Shown: piece by piece, positions 14,100 through 17,416 of the stretch
Layout of the letters: every line of letters begins with the position of its first letter
Numbering within the stretch: position 1 is the stretch's first letter
NCBI GenBank assembly: GCA_965208245.1
Contig: OZ242325.1
Coordinates: 2,581,878 to 2,645,877 of the forward strand
Origin: Candidatus Poribacteria bacterium
GTDB lineage: Bacteria > Poribacteria > WGA-4E > WGA-3G
Direction: 5' to 3'
DNA length: 64,000 nucleotides
Notes under the pieces: generated by a model
What the model was told of the DNA's origin: nothing
The model's database searches: none
The model's input: the letters and a program-made list of their open reading frames with translations, nothing else
Made by a program: the position numbers and the translations under genes

Positions 14100-15986
14100 T
14101 TGATATTTTCTGTTAGGTCCATTGTCATAACATCAAGGCAAGTTGTATTTTGGAAAAAAAAGAAAATGAGCACAGCACTAAATCTACAAGATCACGTTTT
14201 CTATAACAATCGCGGTATTGATTACGAAGAAAAAGGAGAGTACGATCTTGCCATTAAAGATTTTTCAAAAGCAATTGATCTTAAACCAGACTATGACTTA
14301 GCCTATAACAATCGCGGTGCTGTCTATCGCAGTAAGGGAGAGCACGATTTAGCTATAGAAGACTGCAACAAAGCCATACAACTGAAACCCGACTATGCCG
14401 AACCCTATAATAATCGCGGAGCTGCTTACAGCAACAAAGGTGAGATTGACCGTGCCATTGAAGACTATAACATAGCAATACAACTAAAATCGGATTTTGT
14501 TCAAGCATATTATAATCGCGGTATTGCTTACCATGAAAAAGGTGAATTGGATCTTGCCATCAAAGACTATAGCAAGGCAATAAAACTGAATCCGAAACTT
14601 GTTCACCCCTACAATAATCGTGCCAATGCCTACCGTCAGAAACGATATTTTGATAAAGCCATTGAAGACTGTCATAAGGCAATAGAATTAGAACCAAAAC
14701 TCGGTCTTGCATATTATATACGTGGTGAGGTGTGGTTAAATCTTAAAGAATGGGATAAAGCCAGATCAGACCTAACAAGTGCAAAAAACATGGGAGTTGA
14801 TATTGTCAAAGCGTTTCATAATACTTATAGAGACATTTTTAACTTTGAACGAAGAAATGACGTTAAAGTACCGAAAGACATCTCTCTAATGCTGAGAGAA
14901 TACACAGTAAACCCATTTACCACTACACAAAAGATTGTGACTCGTGATGGAGAAACCCGGGAATCTGCTGCAGTATTAGAACTATTAGAAAAATTCCGTA
15001 ATGCTGGAAAACCGTTGCGCGAATATCTCCAAGAACCCTCTTCACGTGGGATTACCACAGGATATAACGAAGCGTTTATTGTCCACCGTGAGACACGGGA
15101 TGCACTCATTGCAGAACACCCATCATCTGCAAATATTTTAAAGCCGTTTCTAATGGCGCGCGACATTCAACGTTGGCGAGTAAAACCGACAGACGAGTCA
15201 CGCAGAGAGAGACAAGATAAATGGCTTATCTGGGCGCACCGAGGCATAGACATCAATGCTTATCCAGCTATCAAGAAACACTTGGAAAAGACACGTGACG
15301 CACTGGAAAAGAGATCGGGGAAACAGGAATGGTACGAACTCCAAACAGTACCGAAGGGAACAGATACATGTGAACAACCAAAGTGTATTTTTCCTGATTT
15401 AGTAAGTGCTACCGCGTTTGCTTATGATGATGAAGGTTATTATGTAGGAAGTCCCGCATCTCTTTTACCCACAAGTGAATTATGGATTCTTGGTGTGCTG
15501 AATACAAGACCAGTATCATGGTTTTATGCGCGAACTGCACCACTGATTCGGGGACAGTTTTTAAAATTCACATCTCAATATGTCGAACAAATTCCAATCC
15601 CTGATATGGAACCGGAACAGAAGGCACTTATTCACAAAATCGTCGAATATATTCTCTATCTCAAGAAACAACCGACAACGGATAGCAAAGACCTAGCACA
15701 CTCCAGAGACTATGTGATGGTGGCATATTTCGGTAATATCCTTAACGGGTTAACCTATGAACTCTATTTACCTGATGAACTCCATAAGGGTGATAAATAC
15801 TTTTTCCAGCCGTTATTTGACGAGAAATTACCAATACTTGAAAAGATTCAAGAACAGGAAATGGATGAAATGCACACATTTCGGGATATCTTTGAGCGAT
15901 TATATGATAAGCATCATCCAGTTGCAAGGAATCTTTTCTTTTTAGATGGTGTTAAACCTATTCGCATCATTGAGAGTAAGGCATGA
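14100..15986 (+). CDS. Fusion protein: N-terminal TPR repeats (about 6) plus a C-terminal type IIG/PglX-like target-recognition (TaqI_C-like) domain, with no methyltransferase domain
   Basis: Residues about 30-230 are canonical 34-aa TPRs (AYNNRG..YxxKGExDLAIxDxxKAIxL). The C-terminal roughly 400 aa align with the C-terminal region of the 1214-aa type IIG enzyme in this same window (GITTGYNEAFIV...ANILKPFLMARDIQRW against GIVTGCNEAFII...AEIIKPFLSGRDIKRF). TTG start at 14100 with AGGTGA 7 nt upstream; an alternative ATG lies at 14166. Confidence 0.6.
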   Translation: MIFSVRSIVITSRQVVFWKKKKMSTALNLQDHVFYNNRGIDYEEKGEYDLAIKDFSKAIDLKPDYDLAYNNRGAVYRSKGEHDLAIEDCNKAIQLKPDYAEPYNNRGAAYSNKGEIDRAIEDYNIAIQLKSDFVQAYYNRGIAYHEKGELDLAIKDYSKAIKLNPKLVHPYNNRANAYRQKRYFDKAIEDCHKAIELEPKLGLAYYIRGEVWLNLKEWDKARSDLTSAKNMGVDIVKAFHNTYRDIFNFERRNDVKVPKDISLMLREYTVNPFTTTQKIVTRDGETRESAAVLELLEKFRNAGKPLREYLQEPSSRGITTGYNEAFIVHRETRDALIAEHPSSANILKPFLMARDIQRWRVKPTDESRRERQDKWLIWAHRGIDINAYPAIKKHLEKTRDALEKRSGKQEWYELQTVPKGTDTCEQPKCIFPDLVSATAFAYDDEGYYVGSPASLLPTSELWILGVLNTRPVSWFYARTAPLIRGQFLKFTSQYVEQIPIPDMEPEQKALIHKIVEYILYLKKQPTTDSKDLAHSRDYVMVAYFGNILNGLTYELYLPDELHKGDKYFFQPLFDEKLPILEKIQEQEMDEMHTFRDIFERLYDKHHPVARNLFFLDGVKPIRIIESKA

Positions 15987-17416
15987 GAATTACAAAAATA
16001 GAGATTAAAAACTTTAGGGCTTTTCACGGCACCTATCAAATTGAGTTGTGTAAAGCAGGAAAAAATCTATTAGTTTATGGTGAAAATGGTAGTGGAAAAA
16101 CATCGTTGTATCAGGCATTAAAATTCTTTCTGGAATCCGGTGAAGGGATTCATCAATTTAAAAATCATCAGAATATCTTTATTGCAAACGATGATGGACA
16201 CATTAAACTACATCTCCGCGCAAACTCAGGATCCAATGAGCACGTGTATGAATGGTCCCAAAACATTAGAGAAACGAATGATCTATTGATTATCAATGCA
16301 TCAAAGGCAAAAGGGTTCCTTGACTATAAAAATCTGCTGGAAACGCATTTTATCCATCGTGAAGAAGAAAACGTGAATATCTTCAAATTGTTAGTGGATA
16401 ATCTTCTGATCAACACCGTCAATCCTGTAACAGATCGAACGCTTGGTGATGAATGGGAAAGCGTCCAACAGAAGCCGCGTCCCCGCCGAAACGCTAAAAC
16501 GAAAATCGCAGAATTGGAAACAGAAATAGAAACTTGCAACAGAGAATTAAGACGTAGATTGGAAATACTGCAAACAAAAACATCCGAGATTCTCCAAAAA
16601 TTTGGATATAACGTTACACTCAAATTAGATTTTCAAGGGATAACATACAACCAAGATGGCAAGACACTTGATAATCAAGAAATTTTCTTAAATGTTGAGT
16701 TTTTTGATAAAAGCATCTCTGAGCATCATCGCTTTCTAAACGAAGCAAAGTTGTCGGCAATAGCAATTTCTATCTACTTTTCATCAATCCTAATCCAGCC
16801 AGAAAGCGATTTAAAGGTTTTAGCATTAGATGATGTCCTAATCGGTCTGGACATGTCAAATCGTCTCCCAGTTCTTGATATTTTAGAAGAATATTTCGCA
16901 GATTACCAAATCTTTCTAACAACTTATGATAAAGCATGGTATGAAATCGTCAAACAGCGGACATCCCACGGTGGAAAGTGGAAAGCAGTTGAATTCTATT
17001 TTCGGCAAACCGATGAGTATGAAATTCCGGTTTATGTTGAAGATAAGGCATACCTTGACAAGGCGAAGGAATACCTTGAAGCAAACGACTATAAAACTTG
17101 TGCAGTTTATCTTCGGACTGCTTTTGAGATAATAATAGAGGAGTTTTGTCACAGTAAACATCTTCCTGTAAAATATCACCGAGATCCGAACAAACAGGAT
17201 TCTCAGGTTTTCTGGGATGCAATAAAAATTGAGAATAAAAGAATGACAGAAAAGGAATCCCATACCTTGTTAGAACAAGATCTTATCAACAGTATTGAGT
17301 TGTATAGGAGTCGTATTCTAAATCCACTCAGCCATGCTACCATTGCCAACATACCAAAGAAAGAAATTGAAGATACCCTTGAAGCGGTAGAACGCCTTAA
17401 AACTACGTTGGGATAA
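15983..17416 (+). CDS. SMC/RecF/ABC-like ATPase with a coiled-coil insert and a C-terminal helical domain carrying an Rx6H (HEPN-like) motif
   Basis: Walker A LVYGENGSGKTSLYQAL, a coiled coil (KIAELETEIETCNRELRRRLEIL), an ABC-signature-like LNEAKLSAIAIS, Walker B/D-loop KVLALDDVLIGLD and Q-/H-loop-like QIFLTTYD. C-terminal ...RSRILNPLSHA. The ATGA start overlaps the stop of the upstream gene. Confidence 0.6.
   Translation: MRITKIEIKNFRAFHGTYQIELCKAGKNLLVYGENGSGKTSLYQALKFFLESGEGIHQFKNHQNIFIANDDGHIKLHLRANSGSNEHVYEWSQNIRETNDLLIINASKAKGFLDYKNLLETHFIHREEENVNIFKLLVDNLLINTVNPVTDRTLGDEWESVQQKPRPRRNAKTKIAELETEIETCNRELRRRLEILQTKTSEILQKFGYNVTLKLDFQGITYNQDGKTLDNQEIFLNVEFFDKSISEHHRFLNEAKLSAIAISIYFSSILIQPESDLKVLALDDVLIGLDMSNRLPVLDILEEYFADYQIFLTTYDKAWYEIVKQRTSHGGKWKAVEFYFRQTDEYEIPVYVEDKAYLDKAKEYLEANDYKTCAVYLRTAFEIIIEEFCHSKHLPVKYHRDPNKQDSQVFWDAIKIENKRMTEKESHTLLEQDLINSIELYRSRILNPLSHATIANIPKKEIEDTLEAVERLKTTLG

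What the first reader, a model, noticed from the sequence alone, without database searches (positions are those of the whole stretch)
14100..17416. Candidate undescribed defence-like cassette: TPR protein with an orphan type IIG target-recognition-like domain plus an overlapping SMC/ABC ATPase, inserted between a nitroreductase gene fragment and its intact copy
Two genes joined by an ATGA stop/start overlap. Gene 1 has about 6 canonical TPRs followed by roughly 400 aa that align with the C-terminal TaqI_C-like target-recognition domain of the 1214-aa type IIG MTase at 34550-38194. It has no methyltransferase motifs (no FxGxG, no NPPY). Gene 2 is a RecF/SMC-like ATPase (Walker A GENGSGKTS, coiled coil, Walker B VLALDDVLIGLD) with a C-terminal helical domain carrying RSRILNPLSH, an Rx6H motif as in HEPN nucleases. 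The cassette is bracketed by a decayed 5' copy (13918-14087) and the intact copy (17484) of the same nitroreductase gene, so it looks like an inserted island. A DNA-sequence-reading module without catalytic MTase, tethered to a protein-interaction scaffold and co-translated with an SMC-like ATPase that may be an effector, does not match BREX, DISARM, Septu, Gabija, Lamassu, PARIS or classical RM architectures as I know them.
Basis: partly seen in the sequence, partly recalled or inferred. Interest (0 to 1): 0.8.

Follow-up and report, generated by a model that had tools for sequence, protein, structure and literature searches.

The report
Orphan restriction-reader plus PrrC-like ATPase pair
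A sponge-symbiont (Poribacteria) genome carries a two-gene module in which the DNA-reading end of a restriction enzyme, stripped of its enzymes and fused to TPR repeats, is coupled to an SMC/Rad50-like ATPase with an RNase-like tail, most likely an undescribed relative of the PrrC/RloC "restriction-guard" antiviral systems.

Summary
Gene 1 (true start ATG 14166, 606 aa) is about six TPRs plus a TaqI_C target-recognition domain with no methylase. Gene 2 (15983-17416) overlaps it by ATGA and is an SMC/Rad50/RecF-like ABC ATPase.

New findings:
- Gene 2's C-terminal domain carries conserved R-x3-E…S-H, the PrrC/RloC anticodon-nuclease triad, and recurrent weak HEPN/DUF4145 hits.
- The ATPase family spans many phyla (529 clusters at 50% identity). 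In 48 of 61 loci the adjacent upstream gene ends in TaqI_C, and outside Poribacteria it is usually a complete type IIG enzyme.
- ATPase-linked partners share a ~65-aa tail (HP[IV]R…RIIEG) that unlinked type IIG enzymes lack, including the window's own.
- In Poribacteria the nuclease-methylase part is replaced by 5-17 TPRs with TIR, FRG or no N-terminal domain.
- A minimal orphan-TRD/ATPase pair sits on a conjugative Nostoc plasmid.
- Both genes are under purifying selection.

The "island inserted into nitroreductase" reading is wrong. ATPase-nitroreductase adjacency is shared by seven Poribacteria genomes, and the fragment travels with this cassette variant to other sites.

Verdict: a defence-like module, a new variant of the R-M-linked ABC-HEPN kind. 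The mechanism is inferred, not shown.

The parts
13918..14088 (+). Relic 5' fragment (56 codons) of a nitroreductase gene. It is carried with this cassette variant and may supply its upstream expression signals.
   Evidence: Pfam Nitroreductase E=3e-6. 66% aa identity to the intact gene. The same fragment and junction lie upstream of gene 1 in L004 and L020.
14089..14165 (+). Conserved non-coding leader between the relic and the gene 1 start codon.
   Evidence: Homologous in the window, L004 and L020, within an alignment of 82% mean identity. The promoter-like match at 14122-14151 is not above chance.
14166..15986 (+). Gene 1, 606 aa. About six TPRs (aa ~10-220), a linker, a TaqI_C-type target-recognition domain, and a ~65-aa C-terminal tail specific to ATPase-linked partners. 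It has no methylase or nuclease domain.
   Evidence: P0121, 100% identical, 606 aa; equals aa 323-939 of the FRG-bearing L002 orthologue; M.BseCI TRD, E=1e-10.
15780..15983 (+). C-terminal tail of gene 1 (approximately aa 540-606). It carries the motif HPV-R…IRIIES and is the candidate docking module for the ATPase.
   Evidence: Present in all ATPase-linked partners aligned, across phyla. Absent from the three unlinked type IIG enzymes, including the window's own.
15983..17035 (+). Gene 2 N-terminal part: SMC/Rad50/RecF-like ABC ATPase head with a short coiled-coil insert. Walker A is G33-K39 and Walker B is D283-D284.
17036..17416 (+). Gene 2 C-terminal helical domain (aa ~352-477), HEPN / anticodon-nuclease-like. 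Key residues are R378, E382, N447, S450, H451 and E461.
   Evidence: Conservation of these residues in A2 and A3. 18 of 43 members hit DUF4145 and 8 of 43 hit HEPN PF05168. The residues match the published PrrC/RloC triad Arg-X3-Glu-Xn-(Ser)His (PMC2610378).
34550..38194 (-). Complete, tail-less type IIG enzyme of the same clade, encoded ~17 kb away. It is a possible trans partner; a functional link is not shown.
   Evidence: Eco57I + TaqI_C. 52% identical to the ATPase-linked type IIG of L011 and 51% to the L005 type IIG that sits directly upstream of a TIR-TPR-TaqI_C/ATPase pair.

Best explanation
The cassette is a two-gene conflict (antiviral or anti-mobile-element) module of the restriction-linked ABC-ATPase-HEPN kind, working on the PrrC/RloC principle.

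- Gene 2 encodes a Rad50/SMC-like ABC ATPase whose C-terminal HEPN-like domain is a latent RNase. Its likely targets are tRNA or other cellular RNA.
- Gene 1 encodes its obligatory partner. The TaqI_C target-recognition domain plus the ~65-aa tail dock the ATPase, are made with it through translational coupling, and keep the RNase silent.
- In most phyla this docking module is the C-terminus of a complete type IIG restriction-modification enzyme. There the ATPase-RNase acts as a back-up or guard for that enzyme.
- In Poribacteria the nuclease-methylase part has been replaced by a TPR array, with or without an N-terminal TIR or FRG (NAD-targeting) effector. The TRD-tail then serves as a sensor or docking platform rather than as part of a modifying enzyme.
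- A perturbation would trigger an ATP-dependent switch that releases the RNase, and TIR/FRG where present, and stops growth of the infected cell. The perturbation could be foreign DNA, or an anti-restriction protein binding the TRD or the TPRs.
- The window copy has no N-terminal effector, so the HEPN-like domain would be its only effector.

Shown here: the domain content, the conserved catalytic-type residues, the strict gene coupling, the partner-specific tail, the effector and repeat swapping, the mobility, and purifying selection.

Inferred: the physical complex, the RNase activity, its silencing, the trigger and the antiviral outcome.
For: 1. Architecture. TPR + TaqI_C without an MTase, and an SMC_N/AAA_15/AAA_23 ATPase. 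High-confidence model. Rad50/SMC/RecF-like head.
2. C-terminal domain. R378 and H451 are invariant in both alignments. E382 is invariant among 43 and >=90% among 112 sequences. N447, S450 and E461 are near-invariant. HEPN-type families are the only recurrent Pfam signal: DUF4145 in 18 of 43 and HEPN in 8 of 43, best E=6e-5. The pattern matches the experimentally validated PrrC/RloC triad Arg-X3-Glu-X36-52-(Ser)His (PMC2610378). ABC-HEPN fusions in R-M operons are an established class (PMC3710099).
3. Coupling. In 48 of 61 loci the adjacent upstream same-strand gene ends in TaqI_C. Of the 44 found by direct search, 31 overlap the ATPase start by 4 bases. Outside Poribacteria the partner is usually a complete Eco57I + TaqI_C enzyme.
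4. Tail. A ~65-aa tail with HP[IV]R…RIIEG occurs only in ATPase-linked partners.
5. Immune-type modularity in Poribacteria. N-terminal TIR, FRG, weak HNH or nothing, and 5-17 TPRs. FRG is a predicted NADase effector (PMC9503650).
6. Neighbours and mobility. GmrSD, a type IIG enzyme and transposase genes are neighbours. A minimal pair sits on a conjugative Nostoc plasmid. The phyletic spread is patchy. The same cassette variant occurs at three different sites.
7. Selection. dN/dS is 0.09-0.25.
Against: - No experiment bears on it, and no named defence system matches.
- HEPN membership rests on weak individual hits. The best DUF4145 E-value is 0.003, and for the window's own domain it is only 0.13. 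The PDB profile search and hhalign against a classical HEPN were not significant.
- The canonical Rx4-6H arginine is not conserved across the family. The triad spacer (68 aa) is longer than the published 36-52.
- Pfam AAA_13, the PrrC/RloC family, matches only the N-terminal P-loop and below its threshold.
- The ATPase has atypical motifs: DD instead of DE in Walker B, LNEA in place of the LSGGQ signature, and no H-loop histidine. It may bind ATP rather than hydrolyse it quickly.
- The pair occupies a fixed, syntenic chromosomal site in seven Poribacteria genomes, and its TRD is unusually conserved. That is less typical of fast-turnover defence genes.
- Without a methylase it is unclear how self DNA would be spared if the TRD still reads DNA.
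- No phage-borne copies were found.
Confidence: 0.5

Rival explanations
1. The ATPase is a mechanical accessory of the restriction enzyme rather than an RNase guard. An SMC/Rad50-like clamp or loop-former would help TRD-bearing proteins find, bridge or hold DNA sites. In Poribacteria it would deliver TIR/FRG effectors to DNA recognised by the orphan TRD. The helical C-terminal domain would be regulatory or DNA/protein-binding, not catalytic. The window copy, lacking TIR/FRG, would then be a sensor without an effector, or would act with the type IIG enzyme at 34550-38194 in trans.
For: - The head is closest to Rad50, SMC and RecF, which are DNA-binding ABC ATPases.
- HEPN assignment is statistically weak.
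- A same-clade type IIG enzyme is encoded in the window, and directly upstream of the pair in L005.
Against: - Conservation of R, E, (N), S and H in an otherwise fast-evolving domain across phyla argues for catalysis. It mirrors the mutationally validated PrrC/RloC triad.
- Minimal orphan-TRD + ATPase pairs exist with no nuclease, methylase or TIR/FRG anywhere nearby, as on the Nostoc plasmid. The pair must therefore carry its own effector.
- TRDs sharing a genome are only 25-29% identical, which gives no support for shared site specificity.
Confidence: 0.22
2. The pair is a lineage-conserved housekeeping function of Poribacteria, for example a RecF/SMC-like DNA repair or chromosome-handling ATPase with a TPR adaptor, and has no role in defence.
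For: The same chromosomal position in seven Poribacteria genomes, between a prepilin peptidase and a nitroreductase. High conservation and purifying selection. RecF and Rad50 similarity.
Against: - The N-terminus carries swapped TIR or FRG domains, and TPR number is variable.
- Partners in other phyla are restriction enzymes.
- The same cassette occurs at transposase-flanked and other sites, and on a conjugative plasmid.
- The phyletic distribution is patchy.
- Gene 2 is disrupted in L020 and L043.
- The window copy is closer to the copy in L004, at a different site, than to the syntenic copies.
Confidence: 0.06
3. The window copy is a non-functional remnant. Gene 1 would be a 5'-truncated derivative of an FRG-TPR-TaqI_C gene, created by the rearrangement that left the nitroreductase fragment, and it merely persists next to the ATPase gene.
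For: The window protein equals aa 323-939 of the syntenic L002 FRG-bearing orthologue. A gene relic abuts its start. The sister copy in L020 has a frameshifted gene 2.
Against: - Both ORFs are intact with all conserved motifs.
- dN/dS is 0.12-0.25 between the window, L004 and L020 copies, which share the truncation. Selection therefore continued after the rearrangement.
- Effector-less TPR-TaqI_C forms occur independently in L006, L010, L012 and L043, and orphan TRDs occur in Desulfonema and on the Nostoc plasmid.
Confidence: 0.07

Closest known systems
PrrC / EcoprrI (type Ic R-M-linked anticodon nuclease of E. coli)
   Same: An ABC-ATPase N-domain plus a C-terminal HEPN-type RNase domain with an Arg-X3-Glu…His triad. 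It is encoded inside, and functionally coupled to, a restriction-modification system that keeps it latent (PMC2610378, PMC3710099). The gene 2 family has the same domain order, the same triad pattern with Ser before His, and strict linkage to R-M proteins.
   Different: - The partner is the TRD-tail end of a type IIG enzyme or an orphan TRD, not a type I HsdMSR complex.
- The triad spacer is 68 aa, not 31.
- Pfam AAA_13 is not matched above threshold.
- The ATPase head has a short coiled-coil insert and atypical signature and Walker B motifs.
- No tRNase activity has been shown.
RloC (Rad50-like wobble-nucleotide-excising anticodon nuclease)
   Different: RloC is ~800 aa with a long coiled coil and a CXXC zinc hook, and is usually not R-M-linked. 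Gene 2 is 477 aa with a ~70-aa helical insert and no zinc hook, and is almost always preceded by a TaqI_C-ending gene.
Type IIG restriction-modification enzymes (Eco57I / TaqI_C family)
   Same: The C-terminal ~270 aa of gene 1 are homologous to their TRD: PF12950 above threshold, PADLOC REase_MTase_IIG C-termini at E=7e-23, and 30% identity to the window's own enzyme. The ancestral partner of the ATPase is such an enzyme.
   Different: Gene 1 has no nuclease and no methylase domain. It carries TPRs instead, plus an extra ~65-aa tail that ordinary type IIG enzymes lack.
ABC-ATPase-based defence systems with swappable effectors (Lamassu LmuB/LmuA, PARIS AriA/AriB, Septu PtuA/PtuB, Gabija)
   Same: Two-gene logic of an ABC ATPase sensor or regulator plus a partner carrying variable effector domains. 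PADLOC gives partial hits to LmuB, AriA, PtuA and GajA heads. Effector swapping (TIR, FRG, none) resembles LmuA diversity.
   Different: - Hits cover only the P-loop region or parts of the head.
- No TOPRIM, HNH or LmuA-type partner is present. The partner here is defined by a TaqI_C TRD plus tail, which none of these systems has.
MADS (methylation-associated defence system) MAD3 ATPase
   Same: Best PADLOC hit of gene 2: mad3, E=2e-13 over 324 of 374 profile positions. MADS is also methylation and R-M related.
   Different: MADS is an eight-gene system whose mandatory MAD6-8 are absent here (bioRxiv 10.1101/2023.03.30.534895). The NCBIfam MAD3 model matches only aa 3-50, at E=0.004 against a cut-off of 420 bits.

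Membership tests
PrrC/RloC anticodon nucleases (ABC-ATPase + HEPN) | N-terminal ABC ATPase of the SbcC/Rad50 type | tested here: met
   [not shown]
PrrC/RloC anticodon nucleases (ABC-ATPase + HEPN) | C-terminal domain with the catalytic triad Arg-X3-Glu-X36-52-(Ser)His | tested here: inconclusive
   R378-x3-E382…S450-H451 is conserved in 43 and 112 sequences, but the spacer is 68 aa, outside the published range (PMC2610378).
PrrC/RloC anticodon nucleases (ABC-ATPase + HEPN) | Sequence membership in Pfam AAA_13 (PF13166) | tested here: not met
   AAA_13 E=3e-4, 19.9 bits against a 36-bit cut-off, aa 22-71 only. Homologues give only faint hits.
PrrC/RloC anticodon nucleases (ABC-ATPase + HEPN) | tRNA anticodon-loop cleavage activity | not testable with these tools
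   Requires biochemistry.
PrrC/RloC anticodon nucleases (ABC-ATPase + HEPN) | Genetic linkage to a restriction-modification system | tested here: met
   48 of 61 loci have an adjacent TaqI_C-ending gene, mostly a full type IIG enzyme. The linkage is to type IIG rather than type I.
HEPN superfamily (Pfam clan CL0291) | All-alpha (four-helix-type) domain with the Rx4-6H motif and a second conserved acidic residue (Ex3[KR]) | tested here: inconclusive
   - Helical domain in the AF2 model.
- Ex3K is present in most members, and N-x3-H has an invariant His.
- The Arg of Rx4-6H is present in Poribacteria (R444) but not conserved across the family.
- Recurrent weak hits: DUF4145 in 18 of 43, HEPN in 8 of 43, PaREP1 in 2, RiboL-PSP in 1.
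- The PDB profile search and hhalign were not significant.
- The fold of this domain alone could not be searched.
Type IIG restriction-modification enzyme | N6-adenine methyltransferase domain (Eco57I / N6_Mtase, NPPY-type motif) | tested here: not met
   Gene 1 has no Eco57I, N6_Mtase or MmeI_Mtase hit. The PADLOC type IIG models match only their C-terminal ~270 positions.
Type IIG restriction-modification enzyme | TaqI_C-type target-recognition domain | tested here: met
   PF12950 at 46.7 bits against a 26.5-bit cut-off. M.BseCI TRD E=1e-10. 30% identity to the window's type IIG TRD.
MADS | Presence of the mandatory MAD6, MAD7 and MAD8 proteins alongside the methylase and ATPase | tested here: not met
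   The cassette has only two genes. The flanks are a VapBC-like pair, a nitroreductase and an amidohydrolase. System definition.
Lamassu / PARIS / Septu / Gabija | Cognate partner: LmuA effector + LmuC, AriB TOPRIM, PtuB HNH, or GajB helicase / GajA TOPRIM | tested here: not met
   The partner is TPR + TaqI_C. PADLOC hits to LmuB, AriA, PtuA and GajA are partial, at E 1e-11 to 1e-7.

The most novel reading that the evidence does not exclude
The orphan TRD-tail is an integrated decoy. It would be a catalytically dead copy of the part of a type IIG restriction enzyme that phage anti-restriction proteins (DNA mimics and the like) attack.

It is wired through its tail to a PrrC-like ATPase-RNase and, in sister lineages, to TIR or FRG NADase domains through a TPR array. 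When a phage tries to disarm the cell's real type IIG enzyme (34550-38194 here; directly adjacent in L005 and L023), it would also hit the decoy and trigger abortive infection.

This would be a bacterial counterpart of the plant NLR "integrated decoy" principle, built from a restriction-enzyme module.
Probability: 0.15. Interest if true: 0.85.

Novelty: new variant of a known kind. Interest (0 to 1): 0.66.

Why it matters
If the inference holds, three things follow.

1. A widespread companion of type IIG restriction enzymes has been overlooked. The ATPase family has 529 clusters at 50% identity and is annotated only as "AAA family ATPase". It would extend the PrrC paradigm of an RNase guarding an R-M system from a few type I systems to a large class of single-chain enzymes. 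It also suggests that many loci now called plain "type IIG R-M" are two-layer systems.

2. The Poribacteria derivatives show a restriction-enzyme DNA-reading module being re-used without any methylase, as a docking or sensing domain fused to TPR arrays and TIR/FRG effectors. I found no description of this architecture. It raises a testable question: how does such a module avoid self DNA, or is it instead a decoy for anti-restriction proteins?

3. The ~65-aa tail gives a simple sequence marker (HP[IV]R…RIIEG) that predicts which TaqI_C proteins are ATPase-coupled.

The ancestral type IIG + ATPase operon occurs in cultivable bacteria (Agrobacterium vitis, Desulfonema magnum, Nostoc, Maribellus), so experiments are feasible.

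Tried and rejected
- **Single-sequence AF2 of gene 2.** Unusable, pLDDT 38. 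Redone with a 112-sequence alignment.
- **Profile of the C-terminal domain against PDB sequences.** Only low-complexity helical noise.
- **hhalign against the window's own classical HEPN.** Probability 6%.
- **NCBIfam on the C-terminal domains.** Only an uninformative STM4504/CBY_0614 hit in 6 of 43.
- **MADS.** Rejected: eight genes, and MAD6-8 are absent.
- **MANTIS / Gao_RL.** Rejected: AAA+ ATPase plus a helicase-nuclease.
- **BREX and BREX-related DUF499 systems.** Rejected: different ATPase class.
- **Krishnan et al. 2020 ABC ATPase classification.** Could not be read because it is not held. Prior description there cannot be excluded.
- **[quoted passage not shown]** Not supported: 25-29% identity.
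- **Promoter and terminator scan.** At chance level.
- **Phage genomes.** No homologue.
- **Exact look-up of the window's gene 1 protein for its source contig.** Failed. Cluster look-up gave only an unnamed 4.25-Mb NCBI/ENA contig. The assignment to Candidatus Poribacteria therefore rests on named homologues and loci.

Full report
**1. What is in the sequence**

ORF listing confirms two same-strand ORFs, 14100-15986 and 15983-17416, joined by an ATGA overlap. The database protein identical to gene 1 (P0121) is 606 aa. The ATG at 14166 and the leader before it are conserved in two related loci. The real gene is therefore 14166-15986.

Pfam finds five to six TPRs at aa ~35-240 in the 628-aa numbering. 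It also finds TaqI_C (PF12950, 46.7 bits, above the gathering score) and no methylase family. PADLOC's type IIG models match only with their last ~270 positions (E=7e-23). The solved M.BseCI methylase matches through its TRD (E=1e-10).

BLASTP against the window's 1214-aa type IIG protein gives 30% identity over ~305 columns, E=2e-27. That gene, at 34550-38194, is on the minus strand.

Gene 2 hits SMC_N, AAA_15 and AAA_23 over aa 1-323. The nitroreductase fragment at 13918-14088 is real: 66% aa and ~80% nt identity to the intact gene at 17484. GC content (0.35-0.45) does not stand out from the flanks.

**2. Organism and conservation**

Both proteins have more than 100 database clusters at 65-92% identity. 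All named ones come from Candidatus Poribacteria, and many contig lengths are shared between the two hit lists.

Seven Poribacteria genomes share one chromosomal arrangement: prepilin peptidase, a variable stretch, [X-TPR-TaqI_C], [ATPase], [nitroreductase], [amidohydrolase], [TPR protein]. These are the window, L002, L003, L006, L007, L008 and L043. ATPase-nitroreductase adjacency is therefore ancestral in this lineage, not the product of an insertion into the nitroreductase gene.

**3. The nitroreductase fragment**

The same fragment, the same breakpoint and the same leader precede gene 1 in L004 and L020. These are the two loci whose gene 1 shares the window's TPR-only N-terminus. Neither has an intact nitroreductase gene downstream. 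L004 is flanked by transposase genes.

The rearrangement therefore happened once, and the relic travels with this cassette variant.

Homology between the window and L004/L020 ends about 15 codons before the gene 2 stop. From there the window follows the syntenic L002 type, which marks a recombination breakpoint near 17395.

The window's cassette is closer to the L004 copy (dS≈0.4) than to syntenic copies (dS 0.8-1.6), while the flanking nitroreductase has dS>1 to the syntenic genomes. Cassette exchange by recombination is the simplest reading.

**4. Gene 2: ATPase plus a HEPN / anticodon-nuclease-like domain**

An exhaustive search of 1.84 billion representatives finds 529 clusters with E<1e-30. 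Most match over the whole 477 aa.

In a 112-sequence alignment the invariant columns are:
- Walker A: G33, N35, G36, G38, K39
- N253, E254
- Walker B: D283, D284
- G288, R294, Q309, T314
- In the C-terminal domain: R378 and H451

E382, N447 and E461 are conserved at 90% or more.

The last ~125 residues form a helical domain. A 43-sequence alignment from many phyla shows Y-x-R-x3-E-x3-[KR] in the first long helix and LNP-x-S-H before the last helix. R, E and H are invariant there.

Scanning each member against Pfam separately, the only recurrent families apart from TPR-like noise are HEPN-type. DUF4145 is hit by 18 of 43, HEPN PF05168 by 8 of 43 (best E=6e-5), PaREP1 by 2 and RiboL-PSP-HEPN by 1.

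The published signature of the PrrC/RloC anticodon nucleases is Arg-X3-Glu-X36-52-His, "where Ser often precedes His". Mutating any of the three residues kills activity (PMC2610378). ABC-ATPase-HEPN fusions "often found in R-M operons" are a recognised class (PMC3710099).

The family here has the same pattern with a longer spacer of 68 aa. Sequence membership in Pfam AAA_13 is not met. The profile searches against PDB and a classical HEPN were not significant. I therefore say it works like PrrC/RloC and do not file it as a member.

**5. The partner gene across phyla**

A scan of GTDB species genomes returned the ATPase in:
- Poribacteria and Latescibacteria
- Nostoc and Pseudanabaena
- many Bacteroidota
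- Acidobacteriota and Planctomycetota
- Desulfonema and Gallionella
- Agrobacterium vitis and others

In 44 of 61 loci the adjacent upstream same-strand ORF is recognisably similar to gene 1's C-terminal part. In 31 of those it overlaps the ATPase start by 4 bases. Pfam adds four more TaqI_C-bearing partners, giving 48 of 61.

Outside Poribacteria these partners are usually complete type IIG enzymes of 1240-1380 aa with Eco57I methylase + TaqI_C.

Other partners are:
- a GmrSD_N-TaqI_C fusion (L041)
- a ResIII helicase next to an ORF with a TRD-like C-terminus (L021)

**6. A partner-specific tail**

ATPase-linked partners align with gene 1 to its very last residues. Three type IIG enzymes that have no ATPase directly downstream end 60-70 aa earlier. 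These are the window's own enzyme, L005 6270-9812 and L023 3020-6721.

An alignment of 27 linked C-termini from different phyla shows a conserved ~65-aa extension after the common "YELY" helix, with the motif HP[IV]R…[IV]RIIEG. The unlinked enzymes stop at YELYxLTxEE.

In L005 and L023 the tail-less type IIG gene is followed by a separate TRD-tail gene and then the ATPase. In L005 that gene is TIR-TPR-TaqI_C and in L023 it is a 386-aa standalone protein.

These orphan TRD-tails are closer to the TRD-tail of ATPase-linked type IIG enzymes (39-41%) than to the type IIG enzyme in their own genome (25-29%).

A conjugative Nostoc plasmid carries a minimal pair with no type IIG gene upstream: a 338-aa "TaqI-like C-terminal specificity domain-containing protein" overlapping a 477-aa "AAA family ATPase".

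The tail is the best candidate for the ATPase-docking element. This is an inference.

**7. Poribacteria-specific remodelling**

Here the nuclease-methylase part is replaced by TPR arrays of about 5 to 17 repeats. The N-terminus varies:

| N-terminal module | Loci |
|---|---|
| TIR_2 | L001, L005, L009, L013, L025 |
| FRG | L002, L003, L008 |
| Weak HNH-like | L007 |
| None | window, L004, L006, L010, L012, L020, L043 |

FRG is an ADP-ribosyltransferase-superfamily domain predicted to be an NADase-type antiviral effector (PMC9503650).

The window protein equals aa 323-939 of the syntenic FRG-bearing L002 orthologue at 75% identity.

Neighbours at non-syntenic sites include GmrSD plus an ADP-ribosylglycohydrolase (L001), a complete type IIG enzyme (L005) and transposase genes (L004).

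Swapping of effectors and repeats on a conserved core is the hallmark of immune sensors.

**8. Selection**

dN/dS is 0.09-0.25 for both genes, including among the three copies that share the truncation. The cassette is therefore maintained. The TRD-tail part is far more conserved than the TPR part: 91% against 55% aa identity between the window and L004.

**9. Interpretation**

The best-supported reading is a restriction-linked ABC-ATPase-HEPN guard module. Its ancestral form is a type IIG enzyme + ATPase-RNase operon. Its Poribacteria form has kept only the TRD-tail docking and sensing module and gained TPRs, with or without TIR/FRG.

The rivals are less well supported, for the reasons given under each: a mechanical DNA-handling accessory, a housekeeping function, or a dead remnant.

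**10. Comparison with what is known, and novelty**

I found no paper describing a type IIG + ABC-HEPN pair or TPR/TIR/FRG-TaqI_C proteins. RefSeq names the proteins generically, and PADLOC assigns no system.

One caveat remains. The Krishnan et al. 2020 ABC ATPase classification could not be read.

I rate this a new variant of a known kind. The principle of an R-M-linked ABC-HEPN guard is known. The partner class, the tail module and the methylase-less TPR/TIR/FRG derivatives appear to be undescribed.

Noticed in passing
window 12993-13310 and 13379-13684 (+): A VapB-like ORF plus a PIN-domain (VapC-like) ORF lie directly upstream of the cassette. Remnants of the VapB-like gene sit at the same position in L002, L003 and L008, and a short 93%-identical piece is in L020.
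   Followed up: partly
window 26556-38194 (-): A possible second defence cluster. It holds a complete tail-less type IIG enzyme (34550-38194), an MNT + HEPN fusion protein (32136-32951), a 646-aa protein with no Pfam hit (30172-32112) and a UvrA-like 956-aa ABC protein (26556-29426).
   Followed up: partly
L020 11491-13376: A second small TaqI_C-like ORF (298 aa, E=2e-20 to the gene 1 C-terminal part) overlaps a 330-aa ORF that is not a member of the ATPase family. It may be another kind of orphan-TRD pair.
   Followed up: no
L001 7299-9892: GmrSD (a type IV restriction enzyme) and an ADP-ribosylglycohydrolase lie immediately upstream of the TIR-TPR-TaqI_C / ATPase pair. The glycohydrolase next to a TIR protein hints at ADP-ribose signal processing.
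   Followed up: no
[not shown]
   Followed up: partly
L020 8001-9416; L043 8001-8675: Gene 2 is split by a frameshift in L020 and carries an internal deletion in L043. This is either decay of the system in some lineages or MAG assembly error.
   Followed up: no
window ~17395 (3' end of gene 2): The cassette is a mosaic. Similarity to the relocated copies (L004, L020) ends ~15 codons before the stop, and from there the window follows the syntenic L002 type.
   Followed up: yes
L014 3572-8004: In Nostoc sp. LEGE 12447 the upstream partner appears as three consecutive ORFs of 633, 338 and 356 aa. It is probably a type IIG gene split by frameshifts rather than a true orphan TRD.
   Followed up: no
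alignment A3 (gene 2 C-terminal domains): 6 of 43 domains give weak hits (best E=3e-4) to the NCBIfam STM4504/CBY_0614 family, whose function I do not know.
   Followed up: no
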